Shown here: piece after piece, positions 35,943 to 63,829 of the stretch | Numbering within the stretch: position 1 is the stretch's first letter | Layout: each line of letters starts with the position of its first letter | Origin: a virus | Lineage: Duplodnaviria; Caudoviricetes | DNA: 64,000 nt | Virus record (IMG/VR): IMGVR_UViG_3300035498_000404 | Coordinates: 38,895-102,894 of that record | Direction: 5' to 3' (one strand) | The notes under the pieces: model-generated | Told to the model about the DNA's origin: nothing | What the model saw: only the letters and a program-made list of their open reading frames with translations | Database searches by the model: none | Position numbers and translations under genes: made by a program

Positions 35943-36728
35943 TTACTTGCCAGTAGAGCCGAATCCACCAGTTCTTTCAGCGGTAGTATTGTCATCATCG
36001 GTCACAAAATACTGAACGAAGATTCCCTGCATATATCTATCGCCAGCATTAATTCGCACGTTGTCCTTTTCTAAATTTTCAATACGAATCTTAGCCATCA
36101 TATGTCCCTCATTATCAGCATTGTAGTAATCCAATTTGTTACCCTAAAGGCTTTTTATCCTCTAGTTCTTATGATTTCTCATAAAGTTCAGCATATATTT
36201 TCAATTCCAAAGAATTGCCGGACACTCGTGGGGAAATTATATTTATTCATTCTCTATGCGTTACGGTGCTTATAAACCTATTCGATATTTTATAAGTTAC
36301 CTCGGTATTACCATGTCAATTTTGATTTAGGCTTCACCGATTTTGCCCAGTTTAGAGACGCCAATTACATATTAAAACATATATAATATGTTTTAATAAA
36401 ATTAAAGTCTAGCGTCTACTAATCCTAAAGTATTTGAGAGCCGCATATAATGCTTCATTCCAAGTCCAGACCGGGGCATTAACAACAATGCCTTATCAGA
36501 ATCCATAGTGACGCGAACGCCAGTAGGAATAGTAATTTCTGTCATGCTATCGAGTGACATACTAAAGGGTGCATAAAAGTCATATCCTGCACTATGCGCA
36601 GTAGACCGAGTAGGAAGTTTCAGATTGTCATAGAACTCTTTAATATCTGTTTCTGATACTTCATCACCGAAAATCTTAATATAATCCTTCTTAAACTGTT
36701 CATAAGAAACCTTTTCAAACTGAATCAT
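35943..36728 (-). CDS. dut: Trimeric dUTPase, two exons (36728-36411, 36131-35943), 168 aa
   Basis: SAGYD, PRSGLG, G.VDA|DYY, QGIF, RTGGFGSTG. Confidence 0.92.
36132..36410 (-). mobile_element. Group I intron in dUTPase (279 nt, no ORF)
   Basis: P1 AGACGCU/GGCGUCU; aatcggtgaa..aataccgag..gtaacgcata..atatgctgaac; terminal G; restores motif III. Confidence 0.88.
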
Positions 36729-51149: not shown

Positions 51150-51365
51150 TCAAAAAACTTTGTCGATTGTCTTACCCTCATTGTTTAATAGGTAAGCCTT
51201 ATCATGGATTGCGAGTACAATGCCCTTATCTTCCCTCATATCAACACAGATACACTCAGAATCCTTATCATAGTAGGTGGAACAATTGTTCAGGCCGTCA
51301 ACATAATTCCAACGGTCAAACGATTCACCATTCTTTTCAACTCTTGTCAAATACTTTAAAATCAT
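51150..51365 (-). CDS. Hypothetical protein
   Basis: AYLLNNEGKTI motif. Confidence 0.6.
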   Translation of the reverse strand: MILKYLTRVEKNGESFDRWNYVDGLNNCSTYYDKDSECICVDMREDKGIVLAIHDKAYLLNNEGKTIDKVF

Positions 51366-51419
51366 TTTGCCCTCTCTCTTTCTATTAGAATTTGATTTAA
51401 TGACTACAAAATGCAGTCA

Positions 51420-51506
51420 TGGTACGGCAGCTCGGAATCGAACCGAGAAAGGTGTAAACCATGACAGTTTAGAAGACTGTTCCTGTGTCCATTGAGGCAC
51501 TACCGC
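51420..51506 (-). tRNA. tRNA-Arg(UCU) with extended variable arm
   Basis: GCGGTAG/CTGCCGT acceptor, ACAGT-CTTCTAA-ACTGT, CTCGG-TTCGATT-CCGAG, encoded CCA. Confidence 0.8.
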
Positions 51507-51596
51507 ATATAAAAGTGGACGAAACCTTTTAACTCGTCCATTAATAATAGTTTTAGAGGATGCACACCCAACATAATCTATTAGAATGTACACAAT

Positions 51597-51712
51597 TGGC
51601 ACTTGGGGTTGGATTTGAACCAACAGTCTACGCCTTGATAATGGAAGACTTTCTTGCTGTTACCGCCTAATAGACGGCATTTCGTCGCTTTAACCAATTA
51701 AGCTACCCAAGT
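51597..51712 (-). ncRNA. tRNA-like RNA (116 nt) with anticodon arm replaced by an ACAGCAA module
   Basis: Perfect acceptor ACTTGGG/CCCAAGT+GCCA, D arm, T arm; ~56 nt in place of the 17-nt anticodon arm. Confidence 0.8.
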
Positions 51713-51720
51713 ATAATATT

Positions 51721-51778
51721 TAGACGCTATTTTCGTTTGAAACCAAAAACAAACCAAAATAATTGCTGTAAGCGTCTA
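51721..51778 (-). ncRNA. ACAGCAA-motif hairpin RNA A
   Basis: TAGACGCT/AGCGTCTA stem, then TACAGCAATT, inner GTTTG/CAAAC stem. Confidence 0.65.
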
Positions 51779-51852
51779 TTGACATATGATTGTTACTGTA
51801 TTCTCTACTTGTTAATGGAATCGAAAACCTGTTACAAACGTCTGTCAATGTG

Positions 51853-51942
51853 TGGCGGTTGTTGGGGGACTTGAACCCTCGCGTCGAAAATCGGCCTAAG
51901 AGGTTAGCAACCTCTCCCCTTCACCAGCTTGGGTAAACAACC
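51853..51942 (-). tRNA. tRNA-Ser(GCU)
   Basis: GGTTGTT/AACAACC acceptor, AGAGG-TTGCTAA-CCTCT, long variable arm, G73-CCA. Confidence 0.9.
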
Positions 51943-51946
51943 ACAA

Positions 51947-52018
51947 AAATAGACGGAATTTTTAAAAAATACAGAATTTGAGTCTGTCCTAAAAAATAAT
52001 TGCTGTCTCCGCCTGTTT
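51947..52018 (-). ncRNA. ACAGCAA-motif hairpin RNA B with anticodon-like stem-loop
   Basis: AGGCGGA/TCCGTCT stem, GACAGCAATT, inner ACAGA-CTCAAAT-TCTGT. Confidence 0.7.
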
Positions 52019-52216
52019 AAGATTCATAATGGTTTAATTTTAAACAACAATCCACGTTTTATGTAATAACATGGGGAAGAGAGCAACTACTTTGCAATCT
52101 TCTATGTAAAAAAGACTAAATTCAATTATTATAAATACACTATTAAATTTGCCTCACCACCCAAAAGACATCATTTATTAGTAATTATATAATGTTTGAA
52201 TCGTCTTTCTATCTAT

Positions 52217-52245
52217 ATTATAGCACAAAATTTTAATTTTGTCAA
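52217..52245 (-). promoter_or_regulatory. Sigma-A promoter heading the tRNA/ncRNA cluster
   Basis: TTGACA-17-TGnTATAAT. Confidence 0.85.
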
Positions 52246-52274
52246 GTGTTTTTTAAAAAAATTCTAAAAAATTT

Positions 52275-52745
52275 TTAATCTTCCTGATGCCGAGGTTTTA
52301 AAACTGCGATTTTATGAGTTTCAAAATATCTGTTAAACTCGTCTCCACTACATAAAGTCATAACCTCAGACAGCTTGTCCTTTGTCGCTTTAAGAGCCTC
52401 TTCAGGCGTAAAAAATTCACTAACTGCATTTTCATTTTCATCTATATTACGCAGCATGAAATAAACAGGAGAACATTCCTCATTAAAATCACCGGTGATA
52501 ACACAAAACCAATTATTGCTTTCTTTCAAACGTTTAATTGAATATTCCAAATAACCGTCTTTATTGAAAATTGTTTCTTTTAAAATTCTAAGAAACAATT
52601 TCAGAAGATTACTTGTCTTATCATCAATTTCGTCATAATAACCCGGCCATAACGGTTGAAAATAAAAATTTCCAACTTCATCCATAAGAACATCTACTTC
52701 AAGGTCTTCATAACCGTCATAGCATAAATTTCCGATAATTTGCAC
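52275..52745 (-). CDS. Hypothetical protein
   Basis: GAGG SD; GTG start. Confidence 0.6.
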   Translation of the reverse strand: MQIIGNLCYDGYEDLEVDVLMDEVGNFYFQPLWPGYYDEIDDKTSNLLKLFLRILKETIFNKDGYLEYSIKRLKESNNWFCVITGDFNEECSPVYFMLRNIDENENAVSEFFTPEEALKATKDKLSEVMTLCSGDEFNRYFETHKIAVLKPRHQED

Positions 52746-52780
52746 TATTAATTACCTCAAATCAAATAATCCAACTCAAT

Positions 52781-53896
52781 TTATTCATAAATCATAAAAT
52801 CTTTCCCATAAATTGAATTGCACATATCAAATACACGCCCCATACCCAAACCAGATTCACTAGGCATCCAAATTTGTTTTGGATTCCAAATATCTTTATT
52901 GGTATTTAAAGAATCATATTGAGGATTGTCTACCCATTGGCCACCATTGATACAATAATCATATTGTTTTGGATGCGTCCAAGCCAATCTCTGAAAGCGT
53001 GTTTCGCCCTTTTCAAGATGTAAACCATAAGCGCAAAAAATACATCCTGTTCTAGTACAACCAGTGCATAAAAATTTTCCAGATTTTTCGTCTTTTATGA
53101 TTTCACCATAAACAGAACAAATTTGAAGCCCATATTTTACAATATATTCAAATATATCCTGTTCTGTCCAAAACGACAAAGGATTACTGACTGGTTCTTT
53201 CATATAGAAGCCATTACAGCCATTTTTTAACCATTGCTGTCTTCTAAGCCATCCTTCTTCTGCCATTTGCCCAGTAATAGGAAAAACTTGTTGTTTGTGG
53301 GCATAATGTTTTACAGGACGTTTTTTCATAACCTTACAGCACTCGGAAGAAATATTAAATGGCAAATCGTAAAGTGGTCTATATTTTTGTATATTAAATA
53401 CGCTATCAATTTCGCCGTCATTTAAACGTCTCATAGATACAGAATAATTTCCATGAGACATACTAACACGAGCATCTTTAATAGCTCCTGACACCTCTTT
53501 TGAAATAATCGGATACCCATAAATAGAAACAACATCTTTAAATGATAAATTATCTATATTAGAATGACCATTTCGCTTTCCGGCATTCCCCCACTTTGGG
53601 TTTAATACAATTACCCCATCAAAAGACTGTGTAAATTTTTGGATTTCTGGATATTCCAGTCCGGTATTTACAAAAACCACTGGGATATTTTTGTCTGGTA
53701 ATGTTCGGCGTACAATATCAAGAAGAACTGTACTATCTTTGCCACCACTAAAACTTACGTATATTCTTCCTTTAAAATGATTATACCATTCTAAGATACG
53801 CGTCTGACTAATTTGAACTTTGCGCTCCAATGGTAGTGCTTGTAATTCTTTAAGACGAGTGGAATCATGAATGCTTGTGTCTCTATAGTCGCCCAT
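52781..53896 (-). CDS. PAPS reductase-family (PP-loop, Fe-S) protein
   Basis: SFSGGKDS, NTGLE, ECC..MKK.P, RTGCIFC. Confidence 0.85.
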   Translation of the reverse strand: MGDYRDTSIHDSTRLKELQALPLERKVQISQTRILEWYNHFKGRIYVSFSGGKDSTVLLDIVRRTLPDKNIPVVFVNTGLEYPEIQKFTQSFDGVIVLNPKWGNAGKRNGHSNIDNLSFKDVVSIYGYPIISKEVSGAIKDARVSMSHGNYSVSMRRLNDGEIDSVFNIQKYRPLYDLPFNISSECCKVMKKRPVKHYAHKQQVFPITGQMAEEGWLRRQQWLKNGCNGFYMKEPVSNPLSFWTEQDIFEYIVKYGLQICSVYGEIIKDEKSGKFLCTGCTRTGCIFCAYGLHLEKGETRFQRLAWTHPKQYDYCINGGQWVDNPQYDSLNTNKDIWNPKQIWMPSESGLGMGRVFDMCNSIYGKDFMIYE

Positions 53897-53908
53897 ATAA
53901 ACCTCAAA

Positions 53909-54328
53909 TTAAAGAAGCTTAATTACTTCAGACACGGGCTTTATCTTCCAATTCTTTGTCTTTTCTGCCCTATTGATAATTTTAATAATATCCCTAGAAG
54001 TAGAGGAAACTGAGCGGTCATTCAGATATTTTTCACGATACGTATTCAGTGTCTCGGAATCAGAACAAGTATTTTCCACCAAATTTTGTTCTACATTCAG
54101 CATCTCCCACATTGTATGTGTGGCGACCGTGTTGTTTCGACAACGACAAGTTACAACGCTAAAAGGAATGTCCCAGTCAGGACAGGCATAAGCGCACATA
54201 TCTCCATCATAAAAATTCTCGACCTTCATCTTCCGTTCGTCCGTAACTCTGCTATCACGCTCGTCAATAAACGTAAAATAAAGATGCTTCTTATCATCCG
54301 GTGTGTCCCATACAAAAATTCTTTCCAT
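53909..54328 (-). CDS. Hypothetical protein
   Basis: AAGGAG SD; follows a promoter. Confidence 0.6.
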   Translation of the reverse strand: MERIFVWDTPDDKKHLYFTFIDERDSRVTDERKMKVENFYDGDMCAYACPDWDIPFSVVTCRCRNNTVATHTMWEMLNVEQNLVENTCSDSETLNTYREKYLNDRSVSSTSRDIIKIINRAEKTKNWKIKPVSEVIKLL

Positions 54329-54391
54329 AGTTGTCTTTCTCCTTTGTTATATTTAAATACACAGGGGAGTTTCCTCCCCTTATGTACCTAT

Positions 54392-54420
54392 ATTATATCA
54401 CATTCTTTAGGATTTGTCAA
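54392..54420 (-). promoter_or_regulatory. Sigma-A promoter
   Basis: TTGACA-17-TGnTATAAT. Confidence 0.85.
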
Positions 54421-54577
54421 GTAATTTCATCGAGTTTTCACTCTTTTTCTTGAAGAATTGACAGTAGTTATCTGGCGCAGTATAATCTGCACACCACTCA
54501 CTTTCTCCGCAGAAACAAACCCAGTTAAAATCTTCGTGCCATTCACAATTGCCACAGCACTCAATCTTTTTAGCCAT
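54407..54577 (-). CDS. Small Cys-rich protein (56 aa)
   Basis: MAKKIECCGNCEWH..CFC..WC..YC; AAGGAG SD overlaps the previous stop. Confidence 0.55.
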   Translation of the reverse strand: MAKKIECCGNCEWHEDFNWVCFCGESEWCADYTAPDNYCQFFKKKSENSMKLLDKS

Positions 54578-54586
54578 TCAAACTCC

Positions 54587-56044
54587 TTATGCCGTAATCA
54601 TTGCATAACGCTCGTCACTCAGAGCTTTAATCATCGCCTCATAGCTGTCATATCCGATAGATTCAAGAACATTCTTGAAAATCGCAGCAGACATACCGGA
54701 GAACTGACGAACTCCTTCTTGCTTTGCTTTTGCCTGAAAATTACCATAGCTATTTACGTTCCAGAACACAACTTCCGGCAGAGTATAGCCATAGGTATTA
54801 TACTTCTGCTTAATCTGGTCGTAGAACGTCAAGCACCCCTTACGGAAACCAGTAACGCAATAATCCATCTGCATATCAGTAACAACTACAATGGTCTTAG
54901 GCAAGTCCTCACTGGCTATGTTATTTTTGATTGCAGTCTTCAACACAAGCTCAAACGCCGCCTCAAGATTTGTATTATTACCCCAAGGGGCGCTTCTGAC
55001 CTTATTAATCTTACTCCGCAGAGTACCCTCACGAAGTTCAATAAACTTAGGCCGCTCAGAGAAAGTCATAAACAGGTTGTGCCAATCTCCCTTATTGCGC
55101 TCGGCAAAATAAATTGCCAAACCAATAGCGGCGTCCATAGGACGGCCATACATAGAACCAGAAGTATCTGCCATTACAAGAATATTATTCTCGCCCTCGA
55201 CATAGTTAGGCAGAGCTTTCCACTGCGCCTCTAAAACATCATCTTCTGCATAACTATTCTCGTATCCTTCAATAATGTCATAAGGGAACAACGTGGAAGC
55301 ATTAATCTTCTTAGCACCAGACTTCACAGCTTCCATGTACTTAGAAAAACCGATGTTGTCATGCTTAGAAAATGCCTTGGCGTAATTCTTCATTGCATAA
55401 GATGGAACAGCTTCGTAATTAATCTTAGACCACTCACGACCAGACATTTTAACTTCCGTAACATCAATATACTTACGAAGTTTTGCAATAGTCTTCTGAT
55501 AGGTGCGTGCGTCCATTCCCAGCTTCTTTGCGGTCAAATGACCAAGACGTACAGACTCCTTGGAACTGGTATTGACAGACTTAACCCACTTAGCAGCCAG
55601 AGAAACAGACTTGCCAGCATTCATAGCCGCAATATCCTCAGAAATCTGCTCAACCAAAATCTGCCACATATCATTTTCAACAGGCGTTCCGATGAAAACA
55701 TACATATCATCCCAACGACCGAAGAAAGGAACGTACTTCAAGTTCTTACGCATGACATCAGTATGGTTCGTAGCCAGCCAACGCCACATCTGACGAGCAG
55801 TCTCACGCTCACCCTGACCACCACGAGCATCACGACAATAGAACATAATCTTCGTCGTTAAATCAGGACTTTCGTTAAAAGCCGCATAAAGCAGACTGGT
55901 CAAATCACTACGATTCTCGCGCATAGCGCCACACTGGGCGAACAAGTCAAGAACCGAACTACCAGTGGTATTAATAGCCAAAGCACCATTAGTCGTAAGA
56001 GTACGAGAAGCTTCGGTACGTGCAGCATCAGTAAAAACACTCAT
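54587..56044 (-). CDS. DUF2828-family protein (helical N-domain + vWA; Ro60/TROVE-like architecture)
   Basis: T.NGA, RDARGGQGER, GRWDD, AAKW, MIDAS DTSGS, TDMQMD, VFWNV. Confidence 0.85.
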   Translation of the reverse strand: MSVFTDAARTEASRTLTTNGALAINTTGSSVLDLFAQCGAMRENRSDLTSLLYAAFNESPDLTTKIMFYCRDARGGQGERETARQMWRWLATNHTDVMRKNLKYVPFFGRWDDMYVFIGTPVENDMWQILVEQISEDIAAMNAGKSVSLAAKWVKSVNTSSKESVRLGHLTAKKLGMDARTYQKTIAKLRKYIDVTEVKMSGREWSKINYEAVPSYAMKNYAKAFSKHDNIGFSKYMEAVKSGAKKINASTLFPYDIIEGYENSYAEDDVLEAQWKALPNYVEGENNILVMADTSGSMYGRPMDAAIGLAIYFAERNKGDWHNLFMTFSERPKFIELREGTLRSKINKVRSAPWGNNTNLEAAFELVLKTAIKNNIASEDLPKTIVVVTDMQMDYCVTGFRKGCLTFYDQIKQKYNTYGYTLPEVVFWNVNSYGNFQAKAKQEGVRQFSGMSAAIFKNVLESIGYDSYEAMIKALSDERYAMITA

Positions 56045-56047
56045 ATT

Positions 56048-56087
56048 AGATACTCCTTTAAATTCATTTTGTAGCTGTTTTGTATCT
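56048..56087 (-). promoter_or_regulatory. Structured 5' leader of the DUF2828 gene with ACAGCUA motif
   Basis: AGATAC/GTATCT stem enclosing AAAACAGCTA and the AAGGAG SD. Confidence 0.6.
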
Positions 56088-56100
56088 TCCGAACATCTAT

Positions 56101-56129
56101 ATTATAGCATATTTTTATTCTCTTGTCAA
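56101..56129 (-). promoter_or_regulatory. Sigma-A promoter of the DUF2828 gene
   Basis: TTGACA-17-TGnTATAAT. Confidence 0.85.
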
Positions 56130-56135
56130 GTGTTT

Positions 56136-57314
56136 TCAAGAATTTTCTTTTAGAATTTTTACAGTATCCACTAAAGCACCTATCAACGTAGAAATATTTT
56201 CAGTGGTAGTATTTTCATCGAAAGAAATTCTAATAGAAGAAGTGGGTATACTTATATCTTTCAAGGAATCATTTGACATTACAATATTTGACAAAACATG
56301 ACTTGCGCTCCCAGCTTCACAAGCAGAACCAGTGGAAACCTTTATGTCGTAAAGTTCATCCAAAGCAAGCATTAAAGATTCTGCATGAACTCCATGAAAC
56401 GCAATGTTAATAATACTACTAACACAATCATGTGAGGGAGAATTTACTCGGAAAGCATCTTTCCCAAGTCCATCTTCCAACCCTCTAATAATTGCTTTTT
56501 TAAAGTCATTATATTTAACGTCTATTTCATCAAAATTTACACAACGTAAATCATTAACGGCAGCGTTAAGGCCAGCAATACCAAGAATATTCTCTGTGCC
56601 ACCACGTATTCCATCTTCTTGCTTGCCACCATAAATAAGAGTTGGTAGATGATAATATCTTTCATACTTCATTCCATCAGAAATCCAGACAACACCAATT
56701 CCTTTAGGAGCATGAAATTTATGACCTGAAAATGTAGCAATATCAACTCCTAATTCCTGCATATTGATTTTCATATGAGGAAGAGCTTGGGTAATATCCG
56801 TATGGAAAATATACCCATGTGCATGAGCCATACTTGCCAACTTTTTAATGTCCTGAATCGTACCAATCTCATTATTTGCCATTATGATTGATACCATTTT
56901 AACATACCATTCACTATCTTCTCCCCAGCTAAGAAATTGGTCGTACATATCAGGGTCTATAAAACCATATTCGTCTGTCTGTAAAATATTATAATTATAA
57001 TCAAAATCTCTCTTATTTCCGTCAACACTCATAACAGAGCTATGTTCGATTCCGCTTATAATTATCTTATCAACACTCTTATTGATAACCCAAGTATTTG
57101 CTTCGCTGCCACTCGAAGTGAAATAAACTTTTCCGCCGCCACCATTTAGTAGCAAATCAATATTTGTTTTAGTATCTTCAATATATTGCTTTACTTCCAG
57201 ACCTTCTTTATATAAATTGCTAGGATTGCAATTCAAGCAATCCATAGCGCGGTCAATTTCTTTTTTCACATTAGGACTTATAAAAGTCGTAGATGCCGAA
57301 TCTAAATAAATCAA
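56136..57314 (-). CDS. Cysteine desulfurase (IscS/NifS type)
   Basis: IYLD..ST, ANNEIG, SGHKFHAPKG, RGGTEN, STGSAC. Confidence 0.9.
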   Translation of the reverse strand: MIYLDSASTTFISPNVKKEIDRAMDCLNCNPSNLYKEGLEVKQYIEDTKTNIDLLLNGGGGKVYFTSSGSEANTWVINKSVDKIIISGIEHSSVMSVDGNKRDFDYNYNILQTDEYGFIDPDMYDQFLSWGEDSEWYVKMVSIIMANNEIGTIQDIKKLASMAHAHGYIFHTDITQALPHMKINMQELGVDIATFSGHKFHAPKGIGVVWISDGMKYERYYHLPTLIYGGKQEDGIRGGTENILGIAGLNAAVNDLRCVNFDEIDVKYNDFKKAIIRGLEDGLGKDAFRVNSPSHDCVSSIINIAFHGVHAESLMLALDELYDIKVSTGSACEAGSASHVLSNIVMSNDSLKDISIPTSSIRISFDENTTTENISTLIGALVDTVKILKENS

Positions 57315-57331
57315 AATTAACCACCAACCTA

Positions 57332-58591
57332 TTACATCTTATTGGCAATCTCCGCAATACGGCTACGATAAATCTTCTGCAATTCAACCTCGCCATAGAT
57401 GTCCTCGCCACGGAAAACCTCGGACATACGACGCATACCATTATTGCTTCCTGCATACTGTGACATATCAACCTGAGTTTCATAGTCACCATCAATAATA
57501 CAAATACTATCAGAAGAAATTCTCTGTAATGCCAATTTCATAAGGGAAATATCAAGATTCTGAGCTTCAGTAATATACACGCCGCACTTTGTACCACGAG
57601 TATCAAATCCACGAATATCACACATAGGAAGAAGCTGAATCTTATGGTCATCAATAGCACGCTGTAATGCAATACTATCACCCAACTTAGAAGTTAGCAT
57701 AGTACCAATGGAGGCATCTGCCAACTTCTCGGAACGTGAGCCGGGGTAATAGCCGAGCTTTGCACTATTAATAGTTGCAACAGTATTACAGAAAATGATA
57801 ATAGTCTCAATCTTATGTTTTTCCAACAAAGCGAACAAATATGCCAGTGATAACAAACTCTTGCCAGTACCACTATCGCCCTTTACCATGTTAATCTGGT
57901 TTGTACAAAGAGAATCAATGAAAATTTCCTGATAAATGTCCTTTGGCTTAATTTCGCCCTTTGCATCTCCAATGGTAGTAGTCTTTAAATTCTGGCGTTT
58001 AATTGCAACAAATTGAGTACCATTCCATTTCATAGCGTCAATTACAGAACCGTCAGGACGCTTCAAAATCAAATACTCATTCATGATACAATTACAGAAA
58101 TTATTATCTAAGTTCTGATAAATTTCAGCAAGAGCTTCATCGGAACTCACAATGACTTCTTCAAATCCTGTATATTTGTCATCTTCATTTTCTCTGATAC
58201 CAAAAACAGGAAGCTCAAAAACATTCTTTGCGATATTTTTACAACTAATATCATCTGTAATAAAGTTTATAAACACGCCATCTTCTTGCTCTTTCTGATT
58301 ATAAAGAAATGCTTCTGCAATAATAATATTATCAGGAGTACATTCAATTCCTTTATTAGAAAGTAATTCAAGAATTGCATTATAATCAAAATTACAGACA
58401 TAATAATTATCGTTATTGTCAAACAATCGAGCAAGTCTACGAGCCTTAAACTTCGTATCTTCGTCCTTGTGTCCAGAAGTTTTAATATGCTCAATTTCTT
58501 CAAGAGTTTTATGAGAACAAACAAAAAAATCTTCAAAAGCCTTTTCTCCGAGATTTAATAGTGCGTTGGTGTCATAAAACTTTTCTACCAT
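57332..58591 (-). CDS. phoH: PIN-PhoH family protein
   Basis: YDTN, DN.II, GDSGTGKS, RG, EAQN, DGD..Q.D. Confidence 0.85.
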   Translation of the reverse strand: MVEKFYDTNALLNLGEKAFEDFFVCSHKTLEEIEHIKTSGHKDEDTKFKARRLARLFDNNDNYYVCNFDYNAILELLSNKGIECTPDNIIIAEAFLYNQKEQEDGVFINFITDDISCKNIAKNVFELPVFGIRENEDDKYTGFEEVIVSSDEALAEIYQNLDNNFCNCIMNEYLILKRPDGSVIDAMKWNGTQFVAIKRQNLKTTTIGDAKGEIKPKDIYQEIFIDSLCTNQINMVKGDSGTGKSLLSLAYLFALLEKHKIETIIIFCNTVATINSAKLGYYPGSRSEKLADASIGTMLTSKLGDSIALQRAIDDHKIQLLPMCDIRGFDTRGTKCGVYITEAQNLDISLMKLALQRISSDSICIIDGDYETQVDMSQYAGSNNGMRRMSEVFRGEDIYGEVELQKIYRSRIAEIANKM

Positions 58592-58617
58592 ACATTCTAT
58601 CCCCTTATTTTTATATT

Positions 58618-59532
58618 TTAATGTGATTCAACATCACAATAATGCAAATTTTGTACCTCTTCGTAAAAATCTTTACCCCACTTTTTCTCATACTTAGAAC
58701 ACTGCCCATTATTCCAGCCATAAGGCTTCATGTGCTGATTTACTAAGAAAAGAACGTGAAGTAATCCCTCTAAACTCAAATCAGAAAATTTCATGAACAT
58801 ACCGTCATACGCACTAATATTTTCGTGATTATAATAATGAGCTTCCTCAGTCTTTACACCGTCTCTATTACAAAATACCTTAGTCTTAGCTTTCCCAATA
58901 TCATGAATCAATGCCGCATATCTCACATACTTGGAAAAATTATTCTTTTCTGCAATCTTATACGCCATTTTCATGTGTGAACCTAAAGACAAGGTATGAT
59001 GGTGATTGTCCTGATTAAAGTCAGTCAAAGAATTTACAACTTCAACAGGGTCATAAGTTTCAAATTCAAGACCATTAACGAAATTAATACTATCCCATCC
59101 CTCATTCCAATAAGGAATGTTGAAGTTTTTGTACATACGATAAATCACATAATCAGGAACATCCTTTGACCGCATATGAGAACGGGCAATGCAATCATTG
59201 TACGAAGTACGCATAATCATGCAGCTTGCATGAATCTTTCCGATACGCTTTTCAAGTCCTCTGACTCTTTGTAAGAGAGCTGTACGATACCGAGAAGAAA
59301 CATTACAAGCATCAAGAATTACGCTATTGCTACATTCAAGATTAACTTTAATGCGTCTTTCTACTTCCTTAAAGACCTCCGAATTATGGTCTTGATTTCC
59401 TTCGTCTCCATAAAATTCCTCACGAATTGCATCAGAAGAAATTACCACAAATCCTTCTTTTCTCCGCAAATTACAATAAGTAGACTTGCCACTTGCAGGA
59501 AGTCCACACATCACAATAAACTGCAAAACCAT
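58618..59532 (-). CDS. Polynucleotide kinase-like P-loop + HD domain protein
   Basis: GLPASGKST, SSD.IR, LDACN, HDIGK. Confidence 0.85.
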   Translation of the reverse strand: MVLQFIVMCGLPASGKSTYCNLRRKEGFVVISSDAIREEFYGDEGNQDHNSEVFKEVERRIKVNLECSNSVILDACNVSSRYRTALLQRVRGLEKRIGKIHASCMIMRTSYNDCIARSHMRSKDVPDYVIYRMYKNFNIPYWNEGWDSINFVNGLEFETYDPVEVVNSLTDFNQDNHHHTLSLGSHMKMAYKIAEKNNFSKYVRYAALIHDIGKAKTKVFCNRDGVKTEEAHYYNHENISAYDGMFMKFSDLSLEGLLHVLFLVNQHMKPYGWNNGQCSKYEKKWGKDFYEEVQNLHYCDVESH

Positions 59533-59544
59533 TTCTATCCTCCT

Positions 59545-60831
59545 TTACTCAAAATTCGCCAATAATTTCACATCACTATCAGTAGTCCCAAAACTACCAT
59601 AAACTTTATAAAAAATGTTTGGATTTTGACCAATCATTTCTTCAAAGAAATTGTCAATGCTACCAGTTTTAATATTATTGCCGTCTTTATACTTTAGAAT
59701 ATTTCCATTTGTCTGGTCTAAATGGCTGATTGCTAAACTATAATCCCACCTAAAATCGCCAGTTTTTGGAAATTTTTCACGACATTTACGAGAATCGGCA
59801 GCAATTCTTGTATACAAACTACTAGGACTAATTAAACCAAATTTTGGTTCTCCACACCATAAAGTTTTTACGTTAGTATCTTCTTTGATTTTATCCGAAA
59901 TAAAAAATTTATTATATTCTTCAAATCTGCCAGTACCATACCTCATATTGTACCAACGGGAACAATAAATAACTTCAATGTCATGGCTACAATCAAGTTC
60001 ATTGTGAGCAATGTATTTATTGAAGAAATTAAGACCAGTATGATACGCACAGCAATCATCTACGCCATAAAAAGCAACAGAATTTCTCAAACCAAGAGAG
60101 CCTTCAAAAATAATATTTTTAAAATTATACAAAATGCAATACTCTCTTTTGTTAGAAACAAGTGTAAATACCGATGAATGAGTAGTTATATGACTAAGAA
60201 AAAACATTAAATCATCAATGTACTTGTCAAGGTTTGAATCACTATACAAATACGAATAATTGTTTAGAATTTCAAGCACTCCATTCGGAGCATTTTTAAG
60301 AACTATCTCATTGATATATCCGTCCCTTAATCCATGCAAATAGTTCTTAAAACTATCAACTGTCATATTAAGACAATCAGAAACTTTCAGCCTATATTTT
60401 GCGTCTCCATTATTACGCTGAATAGTATTAGTGATTCCAAATCCACTTGTGCTTCTTTTTCCTTTATTATAATCATACAAAGTACGACAAATAGCAACAT
60501 CAAAAGGAGTGGTAATTCTGCAATTTTCATTTACATAAATAATTGGCGTTACACCAAGTTTTTCCAACTGCTCCCACTCGCTTCTAAACTCACTTGGATT
60601 AACAATAAATTCATCGGCAAGATAGGTAGGAGCGCCCTTTAACGTACCAGAACCAAAATGATGAAAAATATGGCGAATCCCATTATGACAAACTGTGTGA
60701 CCAGAATTTACTCCACCGTTGCACCTTACAACAAGAGTATCTTTGTCAGTAAAATAATTAACCATATGCCCGACACAAGAATTGCCATATCCAGAATCAA
60801 GAATAATTTTTACAAATCCAGTTCTTGCCAT
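59545..60831 (-). CDS. Divergent adenylosuccinate synthetase-like protein
   Basis: VR.NGG.NSGHTV..HIFHHFGSG, IFEG, TN are recognisable; the GDEGKG loop is replaced by GNSCVG. Confidence 0.7.
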   Translation of the reverse strand: MARTGFVKIILDSGYGNSCVGHMVNYFTDKDTLVVRCNGGVNSGHTVCHNGIRHIFHHFGSGTLKGAPTYLADEFIVNPSEFRSEWEQLEKLGVTPIIYVNENCRITTPFDVAICRTLYDYNKGKRSTSGFGITNTIQRNNGDAKYRLKVSDCLNMTVDSFKNYLHGLRDGYINEIVLKNAPNGVLEILNNYSYLYSDSNLDKYIDDLMFFLSHITTHSSVFTLVSNKREYCILYNFKNIIFEGSLGLRNSVAFYGVDDCCAYHTGLNFFNKYIAHNELDCSHDIEVIYCSRWYNMRYGTGRFEEYNKFFISDKIKEDTNVKTLWCGEPKFGLISPSSLYTRIAADSRKCREKFPKTGDFRWDYSLAISHLDQTNGNILKYKDGNNIKTGSIDNFFEEMIGQNPNIFYKVYGSFGTTDSDVKLLANFE

Positions 60832-60869
60832 TTTGAATCTCCTATCTACTCAGCTTTATTTGTGCTTAT

Positions 60870-60898
60870 ATTATACCACACTTTCTATGTCTTGTCAA
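60870..60898 (-). promoter_or_regulatory. Sigma-A promoter
   Basis: TTGACA-17-TGnTATAAT. Confidence 0.85.
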
Positions 60899-61701
60899 GT
60901 GTTTTCGTTCTTAAATTTTTCAAGATTGTACTCTCGAATAATATCATATGCAATTTGCATAATATCGTAATTTTTTCTGAATCCTTCGGCAGACCATTTG
61001 GCTTGTTCTATTACACCATCCTGAACCATTCTATCAATACTTTCTTTAACCCTACTTAAACCATTATCAACAGCGCTCAAAAAACAAAGATTCAGTTTGA
61101 TTTTTCTTAGAGTAACAGCTATTTTTTCTTCTACCCAAAATGGATTTTGTTTATTTTCTCTATAATAAGCAATATCCTTAAAAAGTTTGGCAGTTCTAAT
61201 AGTAGAAGCAAATTTCTTACCGTCAAAACCATCTTTGTCTATTTTGATATAATTACGGTTTGTTCTCTTTTTAGTTTCTACAATAGTCCTATTTGTTACT
61301 CCTGCCAAAGCACGAAGAAAATTATCTCTATAAGCATTAATAATCTTTTCGCCAGAATCAGGATTGATAAAGTTTGAAATCCAATCATTATTGGTTACGA
61401 AATATTTAGTATAAAACATTTCCAAATCAGACGGAGACCCCTTAGAGGTATTTTTACAAAAATCTCTAATATCATCAACGACACAGATTCCTTCTGGAAA
61501 ATCAACTTGATGAATGTATTTCTTGTTAATAATTAAATCTTCAAAAGTAGGAACAACAATGGCTCTTGCATCAATATCAGAATCTTTTGTGGCTAAATTG
61601 TAATTTTGAGAACCATAAAGTCCAACAAAAACTACATTATAACCCAATTCATTCTGAATATAATTAAAATATTTACGCAGTGTCGGGATTATCAGTTCCA
61701 T
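60895..61701 (-). CDS. Pol-beta-superfamily nucleotidyltransferase
   Basis: GSQNYNL....SDID. Confidence 0.8.
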   Translation of the reverse strand: MELIIPTLRKYFNYIQNELGYNVVFVGLYGSQNYNLATKDSDIDARAIVVPTFEDLIINKKYIHQVDFPEGICVVDDIRDFCKNTSKGSPSDLEMFYTKYFVTNNDWISNFINPDSGEKIINAYRDNFLRALAGVTNRTIVETKKRTNRNYIKIDKDGFDGKKFASTIRTAKLFKDIAYYRENKQNPFWVEEKIAVTLRKIKLNLCFLSAVDNGLSRVKESIDRMVQDGVIEQAKWSAEGFRKNYDIMQIAYDIIREYNLEKFKNENT

Positions 61702-62140
61702 GAATTTTACTCCTTAATGTTAATGTTGTATCAATAAATGTTTGAGGCGACACATCTGCTGGGTCTGGAAATAAATATTCTTTCTTAAATCTATTCTCTA
61801 CCAACTCATATCCCTCAATTGGCAAATTTTCAATAAAGTCATAAATCTCATTTTCATACTCATACACAAGACATGAATGAGGATATTTTAAACATAATCC
61901 GGGGTCTTGGTCAAAAATTTCTTTATCAATTACAGTTCTAAATTCCCACCACTCAGAATTTGTTTTAGAATAGCAATCTTTACACAAATGAATTTCTGTA
62001 CTTGCTTCATCAAAATAACTAGCATATCCCAAAGGTTTGACCTTAATCACAATGAAATCTTTATCATCAACCTTGCGTAAACACTTTACACAAACATTAG
62101 TGGGGTCTTTAATTGCCAAGATTTTCTTGTCCATTGTCAA
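61673..62140 (-). CDS. Hypothetical CxxC..CxxC protein
   Basis: ORF; GY.S.FD motif. Confidence 0.55.
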   Translation of the reverse strand: MTMDKKILAIKDPTNVCVKCLRKVDDKDFIVIKVKPLGYASYFDEASTEIHLCKDCYSKTNSEWWEFRTVIDKEIFDQDPGLCLKYPHSCLVYEYENEIYDFIENLPIEGYELVENRFKKEYLFPDPADVSPQTFIDTTLTLRSKIHGTDNPDTA

Positions 62141-62441
62141 TCACTCCCAATAAGACATTATACAAATTTTTGTCATCACTTACTTTAGTAACTTTTAACC
62201 CTCTGTGAAATTCCAATTTAAGAGCTTCAGAAAACCCTTCCCATCCAATATCATCATTTGTCATATCAAAAAAATCCATATAGGCGGCAGGGGCATGACC
62301 TTCATCCTTAAATTTTCTAAGTTTCACAACTTCCCCATTGCTCATAATACCCATAATATCTATAAACTCATTATTTTCAAAAACAATTGACTTGCCCTGT
62401 TTTACCATTTCAACAATTTCATCAATTGTGTGATAACCCAT
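62109..62441 (-). CDS. Hypothetical protein
   Basis: GGAGG SD. Confidence 0.6.
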   Translation of the reverse strand: MGYHTIDEIVEMVKQGKSIVFENNEFIDIMGIMSNGEVVKLRKFKDEGHAPAAYMDFFDMTNDDIGWEGFSEALKLEFHRGLKVTKVSDDKNLYNVLLGVIDNGQENLGN

Positions 62442-62491
62442 ATTTTTCCTCCATTTATATAAAGGTAGAGCCGCTTACGCGGCTCTTTTTG

Positions 62492-63829
62492 TTAAATCTC
62501 AGACAAAGTATCTTCACTCATATTAGCATTACTCTCAGAAACTTCCGCAACAGCAATACCAGACAGAACTTTAAAGAAAAAATTCTTGGTCTTATAAGCA
62601 GCGAAACTAGGACGGTTCACAATTCGCACAACCACACCCTCACGGACATGATTCTTGCCAATCGGGTCTACACCATCATAGAACTGCTCTGCTACATTTT
62701 TAATCCACTCGCCAGCAGTTACGCCGAGAGAATCCAATACGTCCTGTTCAGGAATATAACCCTTCCACAAAACAGGAACAGTATTCAATCCCATTTGCTC
62801 ACAACGATACCGCATGAAATCAGGCGTATACTCAACACAATCGCCGTCCTCATTCGTCATGGTCATACGGTACACATACATTTTAGATTCTCCGACCTCA
62901 CAACCATAACTAAACGTAGTGGTTTTACCATAAGCCTTAACGAAATCCTTATCCTTTGTTTTAGTATTGTCAACAACAGGCATAATTGTCGTATTACCAT
63001 CAACATAACCAACAATCTCGTAAAAGATTTCCTCGCCCTTTTTCAGACCAGTAATAACACGCTTATGATGCTGCTCACGGAATTTATCATTTCCATACCA
63101 GCCGCCATTCTTATCAAAAGAATCCAAAACTACACGACGAGTACCACACACATCAACCCACTTCTTGCCGATGTTTAACTTCTTCTTAAACCATTTAGCC
63201 AAAGGCGTAGAATTTTCCTCTTTCAGAGTAATAGCAGAACGACCAGAAGTGCCGTGCATTTTCAGAGTAATTTCAATTAAATCTCCGGCCTTAAAAGCAC
63301 TCAGATTATAATTTAATTGTTCTGTATCAATGTGCTCAACAAAATTCGGGAAAGAAATCTTCCGAGCTTTACCCTTTTTATTCTTCTTAGAATTACCAAA
63401 ATTATTAGAATACTTACACTTAGGAATGTACTTGCGACAAACAGGCTCACCAACCGTTGCTCCCTCATTCATATTCTCAATGCTTAATCCAGCCTTTTTA
63501 AGCCCTTCAACAAAGTCATTATAATGAATGAACAAACCGTCAGAACGCTCACCACGCAGCTTGATAGCCTTAATATTAAGCTTTCCTTCTTCAAGGAAGC
63601 CACCAATATTTTTACCATCTTTATCCTTCTTACGAACCAGATTCATAACCTCACAGAACTTAGAATCCAATTGCAAATCAACAGGAAAATACACGCCGAG
63701 GTCTCCCTCTTTATATGACAGGTCAACAACGACAGTATTGCCAAAGCACTCACCAACCAACAGACGGTCAGCATTTTCCATTTTTCGTACATTTTTAATG
63801 CGAGTAATGTAACCACAATGCTCAGACAT
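62492..63829 (-). CDS. ATP-dependent RNA ligase with N-terminal OB-like domain
   Basis: NADRL, LRGERSDG, KMHG (motif I), YEIVG, EGVV, K.K. Confidence 0.85.
   Translation of the reverse strand: MSEHCGYITRIKNVRKMENADRLLVGECFGNTVVVDLSYKEGDLGVYFPVDLQLDSKFCEVMNLVRKKDKDGKNIGGFLEEGKLNIKAIKLRGERSDGLFIHYNDFVEGLKKAGLSIENMNEGATVGEPVCRKYIPKCKYSNNFGNSKKNKKGKARKISFPNFVEHIDTEQLNYNLSAFKAGDLIEITLKMHGTSGRSAITLKEENSTPLAKWFKKKLNIGKKWVDVCGTRRVVLDSFDKNGGWYGNDKFREQHHKRVITGLKKGEEIFYEIVGYVDGNTTIMPVVDNTKTKDKDFVKAYGKTTTFSYGCEVGESKMYVYRMTMTNEDGDCVEYTPDFMRYRCEQMGLNTVPVLWKGYIPEQDVLDSLGVTAGEWIKNVAEQFYDGVDPIGKNHVREGVVVRIVNRPSFAAYKTKNFFFKVLSGIAVAEVSESNANMSEDTLSEI

What the first reader, a model, noticed from the sequence alone, without database searches (positions are those of the whole stretch)
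51597..56129. Candidate new RNP system: ACAGCAA-stem RNAs plus a Ro60-like DUF2828/vWA protein whose own leader carries the motif
Seen (minus strand): four non-coding elements share a ~6-8 bp helix whose AG-starting strand is followed after 2-3 nt by ACAGC(A/T)A. They are AGGCGG-TA-ACAGCAA (in the tRNA-like RNA 51597-51712), AGACGC-TT-ACAGCAA (51721-51778), AGGCGG-AG-ACAGCAA (51947-52018) and AGATAC-AAA-ACAGCTA (56048-56087). Stem sequences differ but pairing is kept. The fourth is the 5' UTR of the DUF2828 gene and encloses its SD. Established: Ro60 (TROVE+vWA) binds Y RNAs through a terminal stem, and bacterial YrlA RNAs are tRNA mimics linked to RNA repair/decay. Inference: this protein binds the motif, represses its own translation, and carries tRNA-mimic cargo RNAs. 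I do not recognise a named family for the motif.
Basis: partly seen in the sequence, partly recalled or inferred. Interest (0 to 1): 0.9.

Follow-up and report, generated by a model that had tools for sequence, protein, structure and literature searches.

The report
Phage Ro60-like protein with handle RNAs
A 103-kb phage encodes a protein predicted to fold like the ring-shaped RNA-binding protein Ro60, plus small RNAs in its tRNA clusters that share one conserved "handle"; the same pairing recurs in many phages and gut-bacterial genomes, I found no published description, and it is probably a new kind of Y-RNA-like particle.

Summary
Three non-coding elements in the tRNA cluster at 51597-52018 (minus strand) share a 6-7 bp helix (AGRCNN/NNGUCU), 2 nt, then ACAGCAA. 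Two more copies lie in the phage's other tRNA cluster, 76 kb away and outside the window.

The helix covaries here and across more than 100 copies from other phages. Each hairpin copy ends 8-9 nt before a tRNA. One copy is circularly permuted inside the anticodon arm of a tRNA body.

The fourth copy, in the DUF2828 leader, is degenerate. It fails my covariance model and position matrix. It is supported by its position, which matches that of clear copies in relatives, and by a chance estimate of about 1e-4.

The DUF2828+vWA protein models confidently (pLDDT 92.8) and aligns over 409 residues to Ro60 (Z 20.4). Motif-bearing viral contigs encode DUF2828 in 28 of 39 cases, against 1 of 36 controls. 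In 80 bacterial-genome loci, 43 of 48 motif hits lie within 550 nt upstream of the gene, on its strand.

No Rfam family or paper describes the motif. The most likely function is a Ro60/Y-RNA-like particle. Binding, expression and autoregulation remain untested.

This scan has already reported the same system on more than 130 other genomes.

The parts
56101..56129 (-). Sigma-70-type promoter of the DUF2828 gene (TTGACA, 17 nt, TG-extended TATAAT). It places the leader hairpin at the extreme 5' end of the mRNA.
   Evidence: 12/12 consensus match with TG; sequence read.
56048..56087 (-). Leader hairpin E4, a probable degenerate handle: AGAUAC-AAA-ACAGCUA-18 nt-GUAUCU. It encloses the Shine-Dalgarno sequence, and the ATG lies 3 nt after the helix.
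   Evidence: Sequence. It fails model R1 (7 bits) and the position matrix. The relaxed composite has 0.41 chance hits per genome. Clear handles occupy the same place in 17 or more relatives.
54587..56044 (-). Gene for a 485-aa DUF2828 + DUF7788/vWA protein with a predicted Ro60 fold (HEAT-repeat ring plus vWA with a complete MIDAS motif).
   Evidence: Pfam PF11443 4e-44, PF25043 7e-41, VWA_2 5e-9. AF2 pLDDT 92.8. Ro60 matches. Invariant D293, S295, S297, T358 and D390.
52217..52245 (-). Sigma-70-type promoter of the handle-RNA/tRNA operon.
   Evidence: 12/12 match with TG.
51951..52014 (-). Handle hairpin E3: AGGCGG-AG-ACAGCAA ... CCGUCU. Its tip (51987-51971) is a 5-bp stem with the 7-nt loop CUCAAAU, which resembles an anticodon arm. 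It ends 8 nt before tRNA-Ser.
   Evidence: R1 39.6 bits, E 1e-6; MFE fold.
51853..51942 (-). tRNA-Ser(GCU), with CCA encoded.
   Evidence: ARAGORN; Rfam tRNA 50.7 bits.
51721..51778 (-). Handle hairpin E2: U-AGACGC-UU-ACAGCAA ... GCGUCU-A. It ends 9 nt before the tRNA-like RNA.
   Evidence: R1 49.2 bits, E 1e-8; MFE fold.
51597..51712 (-). tRNA body (acceptor, D and T arms, GCCA end) whose anticodon arm is replaced by a 50-nt insert. The insert holds the handle in permuted order (hairpin 51679-51661, then ACAGCAA 51660-51654). It is a non-decoding tRNA mimic.
   Evidence: Rfam tRNA 50.4 bits with a 50-nt insert in the anticodon arm. ARAGORN finds it only with introns allowed. Fold. The same architecture occurs in L004, L127 and L145 and in 9/10 loci.
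51420..51506 (-). tRNA-Arg(UCU), the last gene of the operon. It is preceded by a different hairpin (GGACGA/UCGUCC) and the shared UUUUAUAU leader.
   Evidence: ARAGORN; sequence.
57332..63829 (-). Upstream RNA-repair-type context: RNA ligase (62492-63829), RlaP-like nucleotidyltransferase (60895-61701, weak), kinase+HD Pnk-like protein (58618-59532) and PhoH (57332-58591).
   Evidence: Pfam hits. These neighbours are not conserved next to DUF2828 elsewhere.

Best explanation
The 485-aa DUF2828/vWA protein is a highly diverged, Ro60-shaped RNA-binding ring. The small RNAs encoded in the phage's two tRNA clusters are its partners, so the system is a Y-RNA-like ribonucleoprotein.

Each RNA carries the same "handle": a 6-7 bp clamp helix (A-AGRCNN / NNGYCU-U) with single-stranded ACAGCAA 2 nt after its 5' strand. 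I infer that the protein recognises this handle.

The part between ACAGCAA and the 3' strand is variable cargo. In this window it is an AU-rich hairpin (E2), an anticodon-arm look-alike (E3), or a whole tRNA body. In the last case the RNA ends lie in the acceptor stem and the handle is closed by a loop (E1).

The RNAs are made from one sigma-70 promoter together with the tRNAs. RNase P cleavage at the tRNA 5' end, 8-9 nt after the handle, probably releases the hairpin forms.

A degenerate handle at the 5' end of the protein's own mRNA, wrapped around the Shine-Dalgarno sequence, may let surplus protein shut off its own translation.

By analogy with Rsr/YrlA and the adjacent ligase and kinase genes, the particle probably acts on damaged or misfolded tRNA-like RNA during infection.

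Shown here: the motif, its covariation, its linkage to the gene and to tRNAs, and the predicted fold. Inferred: binding, processing, autoregulation and the biological role.
For: Fold:
- AF2 pLDDT 92.8, pTM 0.92.
- The top 13 Foldseek PDB matches are all Ro60, including Thermus phage Ro60.
- VIA-align gives Z 20.4, rmsd 3.7 A and 409 aligned residues to 1yvr. vWA-only matches reach Z of about 10.
- The MIDAS residues are invariant.

RNA:
- In the 17-copy seed, 5 of 7 helix pairs show double changes. This includes a seventh pair that my search did not require (AU 10, UA 5).
- In the 126-copy alignment all 7 pairs do, with a covariation score of 0.53 against 0.17 in shuffles.

Linkage:
- The handle recurs in every DUF2828 locus from IMG/VR, at 40-51% protein identity.
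- 28/39 motif contigs carry DUF2828, against 1/36 chance-match contigs.
- The handle lies directly before the Shine-Dalgarno sequence of DUF2828 in 17 or more of 30 genes examined.
- In 80 bacterial-genome loci, 43/48 model hits lie within 550 nt upstream on the sense strand. 59 of these 80 loci have no tRNA within 4 kb, among them about 19 of the 32 with a hit.
- No other neighbouring gene is conserved.
- Hits never occur on both strands of one locus.

tRNA link:
- 82 of 286 handles are followed by a tRNA start 4-16 nt later.
- 101 of 134 embedded-handle matches (overlapping registers counted, about 70-80 distinct sites) have a T-loop 25-38 nt after ACAGCAA.

Precedent: Y RNAs lie within 4 kb of Ro60 genes on the same strand and mimic tRNA, and M. 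smegmatis YrlA is cut by RNase P (PMC4201824). A phage Ro60 binds phage Yrl RNAs (PMC12135203).
Against: - There are no binding or expression data.
- The protein does not match Pfam TROVE or any Ro60 by sequence, so common descent with Ro60 rests on a predicted fold.
- The handle is unlike the Ro-binding GNCGAAN0-1G helix of YrlA, and YrlA (RF02553) does not match.
- Three contigs rated complete (G001, G032, G038) carry a good handle but no detectable DUF2828 or TROVE.
- Seven of 30 DUF2828 genes have a different small leader hairpin instead of the handle.
- This window's leader copy fails both quantitative models.
- A handle upstream of the gene could simply be a co-transcribed RNA gene, as in M. 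smegmatis, rather than an operator.
- The RNA-repair neighbours are not conserved.
Confidence: 0.68

Rival explanations
1. The handles are pre-tRNA leader or punctuation structures used by host RNases (RNase P, E or III) to process or stabilise transcripts of phage tRNA arrays. DUF2828 is linked only because its gene usually sits in or beside those arrays and is co-transcribed.
For: In this genome all four hairpin handles end 8-9 nt before a tRNA. Across loci, 82/286 do so with a tight 4-16 nt spacing. Every tRNA here also shares a UUUUAUAU leader. Complete contigs with a handle before a tRNA but no DUF2828 exist.
Against: About 19 of the 32 bacterial-genome loci with hits have no tRNA within 4 kb, yet the handles still lie within 550 nt upstream of DUF2828. 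Many handles are followed by another handle or by the DUF2828 start, not by a tRNA. An embedded handle inside a tRNA body cannot be a leader. A conserved single-stranded 7-mer beside a covarying helix looks like a specific protein site.
Confidence: 0.15
2. The handle RNAs work without the DUF2828 protein, as decoys or sponges. Their tRNA bodies and anticodon-arm look-alikes would soak up host anticodon nucleases or tRNA-directed defence enzymes. The handle would then be a stabilising clamp or a site for a host factor.
For: The cargo includes a non-decoding tRNA body and a Leu(CAA)-like anticodon loop. Some handle-bearing contigs lack DUF2828. RNA ligase and Pnk-like genes nearby fit a tRNA-cleavage conflict.
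Against: This does not explain the tight, strand-specific placement of handles at DUF2828 genes in very different genomes, nor why DUF2828 is the only conserved neighbour. A decoy role is also compatible with the particle model rather than excluding it.
Confidence: 0.1
3. The repeats are DNA-level elements, such as miniature mobile elements or recombination sites, and the pairing reflects terminal inverted repeats.
For: ATAGAC ... GUCUAU looks like short inverted repeats, and several copies occur per genome.
Against: The inner helix positions differ between copies but stay complementary. The asymmetric ACAGCAA is always on the gene strand, and hits never fall on both strands of a locus. The copies lie in transcribed leaders downstream of promoters. 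The interiors are unrelated.
Confidence: 0.02

Closest known systems
Ro60/Rsr with Y RNAs: bacterial and phage YrlA/YrlB (Rfam RF02553; Chen et al. 2014, PMC4201824) and Thermus phage phiLo Ro60 with Yrl1/Yrl2 (PMC12135203)
   Same: The protein has the same predicted fold (HEAT ring plus vWA with MIDAS) and a similar size. The small RNAs are encoded on the same strand within a few kb of the gene. Each RNA combines a protein-binding helix module with a tRNA-like module. RNase P/tRNA-type processing is plausible, and RNA ligase and kinase genes lie nearby.
   Different: The protein belongs to another sequence family (DUF2828/DUF7788), with no TROVE match. The RNA module is a 7-bp helix plus single-stranded ACAGCAA, not the bulged GNCGAA helix. 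Many RNAs are plain hairpins placed directly before real tRNAs. The tRNA mimic keeps its ends in the acceptor stem and carries the handle in the anticodon arm, the reverse of the YrlA topology. A copy also lies in the gene's own leader.
Class I RNAs of Dictyostelium (Rfam RF01414; Kjellin et al. 2021, PMC7919456)
   Same: The design is the same: a short covarying stem joins the 5' and 3' ends, a conserved unpaired motif containing ACAGCAA follows the 5' strand after 2-3 nt, the interior is variable, and a U/G-rich tail follows the 3' strand. The Rfam consensus reads stem, CUU, ACAGCAA ... stem, UG.
   Different: The scores are far below the family threshold. E5 reaches 18.7 bits against 41.5, with the stem misaligned, and no other copy is reported. 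Class I RNAs are eukaryotic genes with their own promoter, and their known binder is an RRM protein. No link to DUF2828 is known. The paper reports finding none outside Dictyostelia.
Ribosomal-protein-type translational feedback (an RNA-binding protein binds a mimic of its RNA target in its own leader)
   Same: A copy of the presumed binding site lies between the promoter and the start codon of the protein's own gene. In this window it encloses the Shine-Dalgarno sequence.
   Different: This is untested. The leader copy here is degenerate. In relatives it may be a co-transcribed RNA gene rather than an operator.
Small stable RNAs in the T4 tRNA gene cluster (species 1 and 2 / rnaC and rnaD; from my own knowledge, not checked here)
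   Same: Non-tRNA small RNAs are encoded among phage tRNA genes and cut out of the same precursor.
   Different: There is no known shared handle or dedicated protein partner. Sequence relatedness was not tested.

Membership tests
Ro60 / TROVE-vWA proteins | HEAT-repeat ring followed by a vWA domain (fold) | tested here: met
   The AF2 model (pLDDT 92.8) aligns to Xenopus Ro60 1yvr with Z 20.4, 409 residues and rmsd 3.7 A. All top hits are Ro60. This is a predicted fold, not a solved one.
Ro60 / TROVE-vWA proteins | Sequence match to Pfam TROVE (PF05731) or to Ro60 chains | tested here: not met
   There is no TROVE hit for the protein or anywhere in the genome. A profile search of PDB sequences finds only vWA proteins.
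Ro60 / TROVE-vWA proteins | MIDAS motif (DxSxS ... T ... D) in the vWA domain | tested here: met
   D293, S295, S297, T358 and D390 are invariant in 62 sequences.
Ro60 / TROVE-vWA proteins | Binds Y RNA on the ring's outer surface and single-stranded ends in the hole | not testable with these tools
   This needs EMSA, RIP-seq or a structure.
Y RNA / YrlA (RF02553) | Covariance-model score at or above the gathering threshold | tested here: not met
   There is no YrlA hit in 51300-52400 even at E up to 10. In other loci the best score is 25 bits against 69.
Y RNA / YrlA (RF02553) | Encoded within about 4 kb of the Ro gene on the same strand | tested here: met
   The handles lie 2.6-4.4 kb downstream on the same strand, plus one in the leader. 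In bacterial loci, 43/48 lie within 550 nt upstream.
Y RNA / YrlA (RF02553) | tRNA-like domain joined to the protein-binding helix | tested here: met
   51597-51712 scores 50.4 bits with the tRNA model and has the handle in place of the anticodon arm. The arrangement is conserved elsewhere. The topology is the reverse of YrlA.
Y RNA / YrlA (RF02553) | Conserved GNCGAAN0-1G Ro-binding motif in the terminal helix | tested here: not met
   The conserved element is AGRCNN-NN-ACAGCAA. The YrlA motif is taken from PMC4201824.
Dictyostelium Class I RNA (RF01414) | Covariance-model score at or above 41.5 bits | tested here: not met
   The best score is 18.7 bits, for the copy at genome 14549-14611. 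No other copy is reported.
Dictyostelium Class I RNA (RF01414) | Terminal stem plus a conserved unpaired motif ending in ACAGCAA beside the 5' strand | tested here: met
   Rfam consensus line and description in PMC7919456, compared with alignments A1 and A3.
tRNA (for 51597-51712) | Acceptor, D and T arms with a CCA end | tested here: met
   Rfam alignment and fold.
tRNA (for 51597-51712) | Five-bp anticodon stem with a 7-nt loop at the canonical place | tested here: not met
   A 50-nt insert replaces it. ARAGORN without introns does not call it.

The most novel reading that the evidence does not exclude
The handle (terminal stem plus ACAGCAA) is the same RNA module as in the unexplained Class I RNAs of Dictyostelium. 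On this reading, DUF2828 proteins, a very large family (6,691 clusters at 50% identity) that also occurs in eukaryotes, are its ancient partner. Phages, bacteria, giant viruses and amoebae would then share one undescribed Ro-like ribonucleoprotein, and Class I RNAs would gain a candidate protein partner and function.
Probability: 0.08. Interest if true: 0.95.

Novelty: new variant of a known kind. Interest (0 to 1): 0.8.

Why it matters
- It would give a first function, RNA binding in a Ro-like particle, to DUF2828. This family has thousands of sequence clusters in phages and gut bacteria and, as papers that mention the domain indicate, also in plants.
- It would add a second, sequence-unrelated branch to the Ro60/Y RNA world, with a simple and easily mutated RNA handle.
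- It would explain the "tRNAs with introns" and the spacer hairpins that gene callers report in phage tRNA arrays.
- It offers a tractable system for asking what Ro-type particles do with tRNA-like RNAs during infection, for example repair or protection against host anticodon nucleases.
- The handle is short and modular, so it could also serve as an RNA tag.

Tried and rejected
- Rfam at gathering and at E up to 10 over the window and the rest of the genome gave only tRNAs and group I introns. The weak RF01414 and RF02553 hits are below threshold.
- The INPHARED phage search found no close relative.
- Sequence and profile searches of the PDB found only vWA proteins, not Ro60.
- Model R1 and a handle-only position matrix both failed to recover the leader copy E4.
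- A weak R1 hit at window 36353-36420 has an AGACGC/GCGUCU helix but no ACAGCAA, so I did not count it.
- Searching other DUF2828 loci for this window's neighbouring genes showed that they are not conserved.
- Alignment A2 was too diverse for the genome scan, so I used A4 instead.
- Burroughs and Aravind 2016 and Avesson et al. 2011 are not in the library.
- The protein atlas gave only DUF2828 clusters.
- A literature search for DUF2828 found five papers, none about RNA.

Full report
**Setting**

The window is the right-hand 64 kb of a single 102,894-bp viral contig with 34% G+C, rated 97% complete. The contig has no close relative among deposited phages.

The finding lies on the minus strand. 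A perfect TG-extended sigma-70 promoter (52245-52217) is followed by about 195 nt of non-coding RNA. Then come, in order:

- hairpin E3 (52014-51951)
- tRNA-Ser(GCU) (51942-51853)
- hairpin E2 (51778-51721)
- a 116-nt tRNA-like RNA (51712-51597)
- a different hairpin
- tRNA-Arg(UCU) (51506-51420)

About 2.6 kb upstream on the same strand, behind its own perfect promoter (56129-56101), lies a 485-aa gene (56044-54587). It matches Pfam DUF2828, DUF7788 and VWA_2.

**Checking the observation**

- ACAGCWA alone is not enriched: 24 occurrences against 17 expected.
- The composite is enriched. An AG-start 6-bp helix, a 2-3 nt spacer and ACAGCWA occur together six times in the genome, against 0.41 expected.
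- Two of the six lie outside the window, in the phage's other tRNA cluster. One is AGACAG-UU-ACAGCAA ... CUGUCU before tRNA-Asp. The other is AGACCC-GU-ACAGCAA ... GGGUCU before tRNA-Thr (genome 14556-14614 and 14779-14872).
- The four hairpin copies have different inner helix pairs (AG/CU, CC/GG, GG/CC, GC/GC), and all of them pair.
- Each hairpin copy ends 8-9 nt before a tRNA 5' end.
- In the tRNA-like RNA the same helix is present with its strands swapped and closed by a triloop (CCGUCU-AUU-AGGCGG). UA and ACAGCAA follow.
- The leader copy E4 is weaker. It has a 3-nt spacer, ACAGCUA and an 18-nt loop that holds the Shine-Dalgarno sequence. It scores 7 bits with my covariance model and below threshold with a loop-independent matrix.

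**Is it a family?**

DUF2828 homologues at 40-51% identity in ten IMG/VR contigs all have the same motif on the gene's strand.

- In a 17-copy alignment, 5 of 7 helix pairs show double changes. This includes a seventh pair that my search had not required (AU 10, UA 5).
- Model R1 found further copies.
About 77 of about 118 matches had complementary inner pairs, where about 14% would be expected by chance.
- In 126 model-aligned copies every one of the 7 pairs covaries, with a score of 0.53 against 0.17 in shuffles. That alignment is fitted to the model, so it leans towards the structure.
- The consensus is A-AGRCNN-NN-ACAGCAA ... NNGYCU-U-G. This phage's own copies end in UA(U/A) rather than UUG.

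**Link to the protein gene**

- Whole-contig searches for PF11443 found the gene in 28 of 39 contigs with a paired motif. It was found in only 1 of 36 contigs that matched the pattern by chance without pairing.
- I fetched 20 of those genes and added the ten earlier loci. A clear handle lies directly before the Shine-Dalgarno sequence in at least 17 of the 30 genes. In L145, L013 and L011 it encloses a T-arm or a whole tRNA-like domain, which is the YrlA arrangement.
- Seven genes instead have a small hairpin with a CUUGUCC loop.
- In 80 loci from bacterial genome assemblies (mostly Lachnospiraceae and Erysipelotrichaceae, at 44-49% identity), R1 gave 48 hits, all on the gene's strand. Of these, 43 lie within 550 nt upstream of the start, 4 lie just downstream and 1 lies elsewhere.
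- 59 of the 80 loci have no tRNA within 4 kb, including about 19 of the 32 loci with a hit.
- None of this window's other neighbouring genes is conserved beside DUF2828.
- Evidence against a strict link: three contigs rated complete carry a good handle, one directly before a tRNA, but no recognisable DUF2828 or TROVE gene.

**Link to tRNAs**

- Among 286 handles in the viral loci, 82 are followed by a tRNA start 4-16 nt later and 61 by another handle within 40 nt. No locus has hits on both strands.
- The embedded form is common: 101 of 134 register matches (about 70-80 distinct sites) have a T-loop 25-38 nt after ACAGCAA.
- Rfam's tRNA model finds 113-128-nt "tRNAs" beside DUF2828 in 9 of 10 further loci.
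- The hairpin form and the embedded form are circular permutations of one connectivity: ACAGCAA, then cargo, then the 3' strand of the helix.

**The protein**

- The family is very large, with 6,691 clusters at 50% identity at E up to 1e-3.
- With a 62-sequence alignment, AlphaFold2 gives pLDDT 92.8 and pTM 0.92.
- The 13 best Foldseek PDB matches are all Ro60: Xenopus, human, Deinococcus Rsr and Thermus phage phiLo.
- VIA-align gives Z 20.4 over 409 residues (model 9-465 against Ro60 10-536). This is twice the score of vWA-only matches.
- The MIDAS residues are invariant.
- By sequence there is no TROVE or Ro60 match. The protein is therefore Ro60-shaped but is not a recognised TROVE family member.

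**How it probably works**

The best-supported reading is a Ro60/Y-RNA-like particle. The ring protein would bind the handle, using the helix plus the adjacent single-stranded 7-mer. The cargo would be a hairpin, an anticodon-arm mimic or a tRNA body.

The hairpin RNAs are co-transcribed with tRNAs. RNase P would free their 3' side; this is inferred from the fixed 8-9 nt spacing. M. smegmatis YrlA is an RNase P substrate (PMC4201824).

The leader copy may give feedback control. In this window that rests on a degenerate site, and upstream handles could equally be co-transcribed RNA genes.

An RNA ligase, a kinase+HD protein and a weak RlaP-like nucleotidyltransferase lie upstream. This fits RNA repair, as in the Salmonella operon that encodes the RtcB ligase and responds to damaged tRNAs (PMC7790460). 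The context is not conserved, however.

The rival readings are a tRNA-leader or processing signal, protein-independent decoys, and DNA repeats. They are weighed in their own sections.

**Comparison and novelty**

The closest known system is Ro60 with YrlA-type Y RNAs, including those of phages (PMC4201824, PMC12135203). The protein family, the RNA binding module and the topology of the tRNA mimic all differ from it.

The handle has the same design and the same 7-mer as Dictyostelium Class I RNAs (Rfam consensus; PMC7919456). It nevertheless fails that family's threshold. I treat this as a resemblance, with a low probability of homology.

I found no Rfam family and no paper that describes the motif or an RNA role for DUF2828.

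This scan has already reported the same system on more than 130 other genomes. I retested the central claims here independently.

Four points are specific to this phage:
- It has a minimal set of handle RNAs.
- They are split over two tRNA clusters 76 kb apart.
- Every hairpin copy is fused to a tRNA leader.
- The leader copy is degenerate and wraps the ribosome-binding site.

Noticed in passing
G000 genome 14556-14614 and 14779-14872 (+), i.e. L001, outside the window: Two further handle hairpins lie in the phage's other tRNA cluster, each 9 nt before a tRNA (Asp, Thr). They show that the handle RNAs are not confined to the DUF2828 neighbourhood.
   Followed up: yes
window 51507-51515, 51713-51721, 51943-51950; L001 14615-14623, 14873-14881, 14955-14964: Every tRNA of this phage is directly preceded by the same A/U leader, (A/C)UUUUAUAU or a close variant. 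It may be a shared processing signal.
   Followed up: no
window 52163-52209 (-): At the very 5' end of the tRNA-operon transcript there is an AAGACG ... UGUCUU helix with CAAACAU where ACAGCAA would be (R1 11.8 bits, E 0.47). It may be a decayed handle.
   Followed up: partly
window 36353-36420 (+): A weak R1 hit has an AGACGC/GCGUCU helix around a perfect AT-rich palindrome but no ACAGCAA. Its nature is unknown.
   Followed up: partly
window 59545-60831 (-): A 428-aa protein matches adenylosuccinate synthetase over its N-terminal half (3e-18). Phage PurZ enzymes of this family make 2-aminoadenine DNA (from my own knowledge), so this is worth checking.
   Followed up: no
window 56136-57314 (-) and 52781-53896 (-): A class-V aminotransferase (cysteine desulfurase type) and a PAPS-reductase/PP-loop protein flank the DUF2828 gene. 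Together they suggest a sulfur-transfer modification of DNA or tRNA.
   Followed up: no
window 2467-5918 (+); L001 9602-10487 (+): Six group I introns match Rfam in this one phage genome, four of them within 3.5 kb.
   Followed up: no
L001 14100-14520 (+), including 14406-14474: A G+C-richer, apparently structured non-coding stretch lies upstream of the first tRNA cluster. It contains a marginal tRNA-like hit (31.6 bits) and two AUUAGACGG words.
   Followed up: no
L134, L135, L136, L138, L139, L142, L144 (leaders of DUF2828 genes): A subgroup of DUF2828 genes lacks the handle in the leader. It has instead a small hairpin, in several cases with a CUUGUCC-type loop, followed by AAGAGAAAAAGGAG. 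This may be a minimal or alternative operator.
   Followed up: no
G001 (L014 3765-3813), G032 (L091), G038 (L074): Contigs rated 100% complete carry a high-scoring handle but no detectable DUF2828, DUF7788 or TROVE gene. In L014 the handle lies directly before a tRNA.
   Followed up: partly
L148-L158 (bacterial-genome loci): In the Firmicutes loci the embedded handles use a different helix (NNNUCA-UGUYUG-UGANNN) before UG-ACAGCAA. The 7-mer is therefore more conserved than the helix sequence.
   Followed up: no
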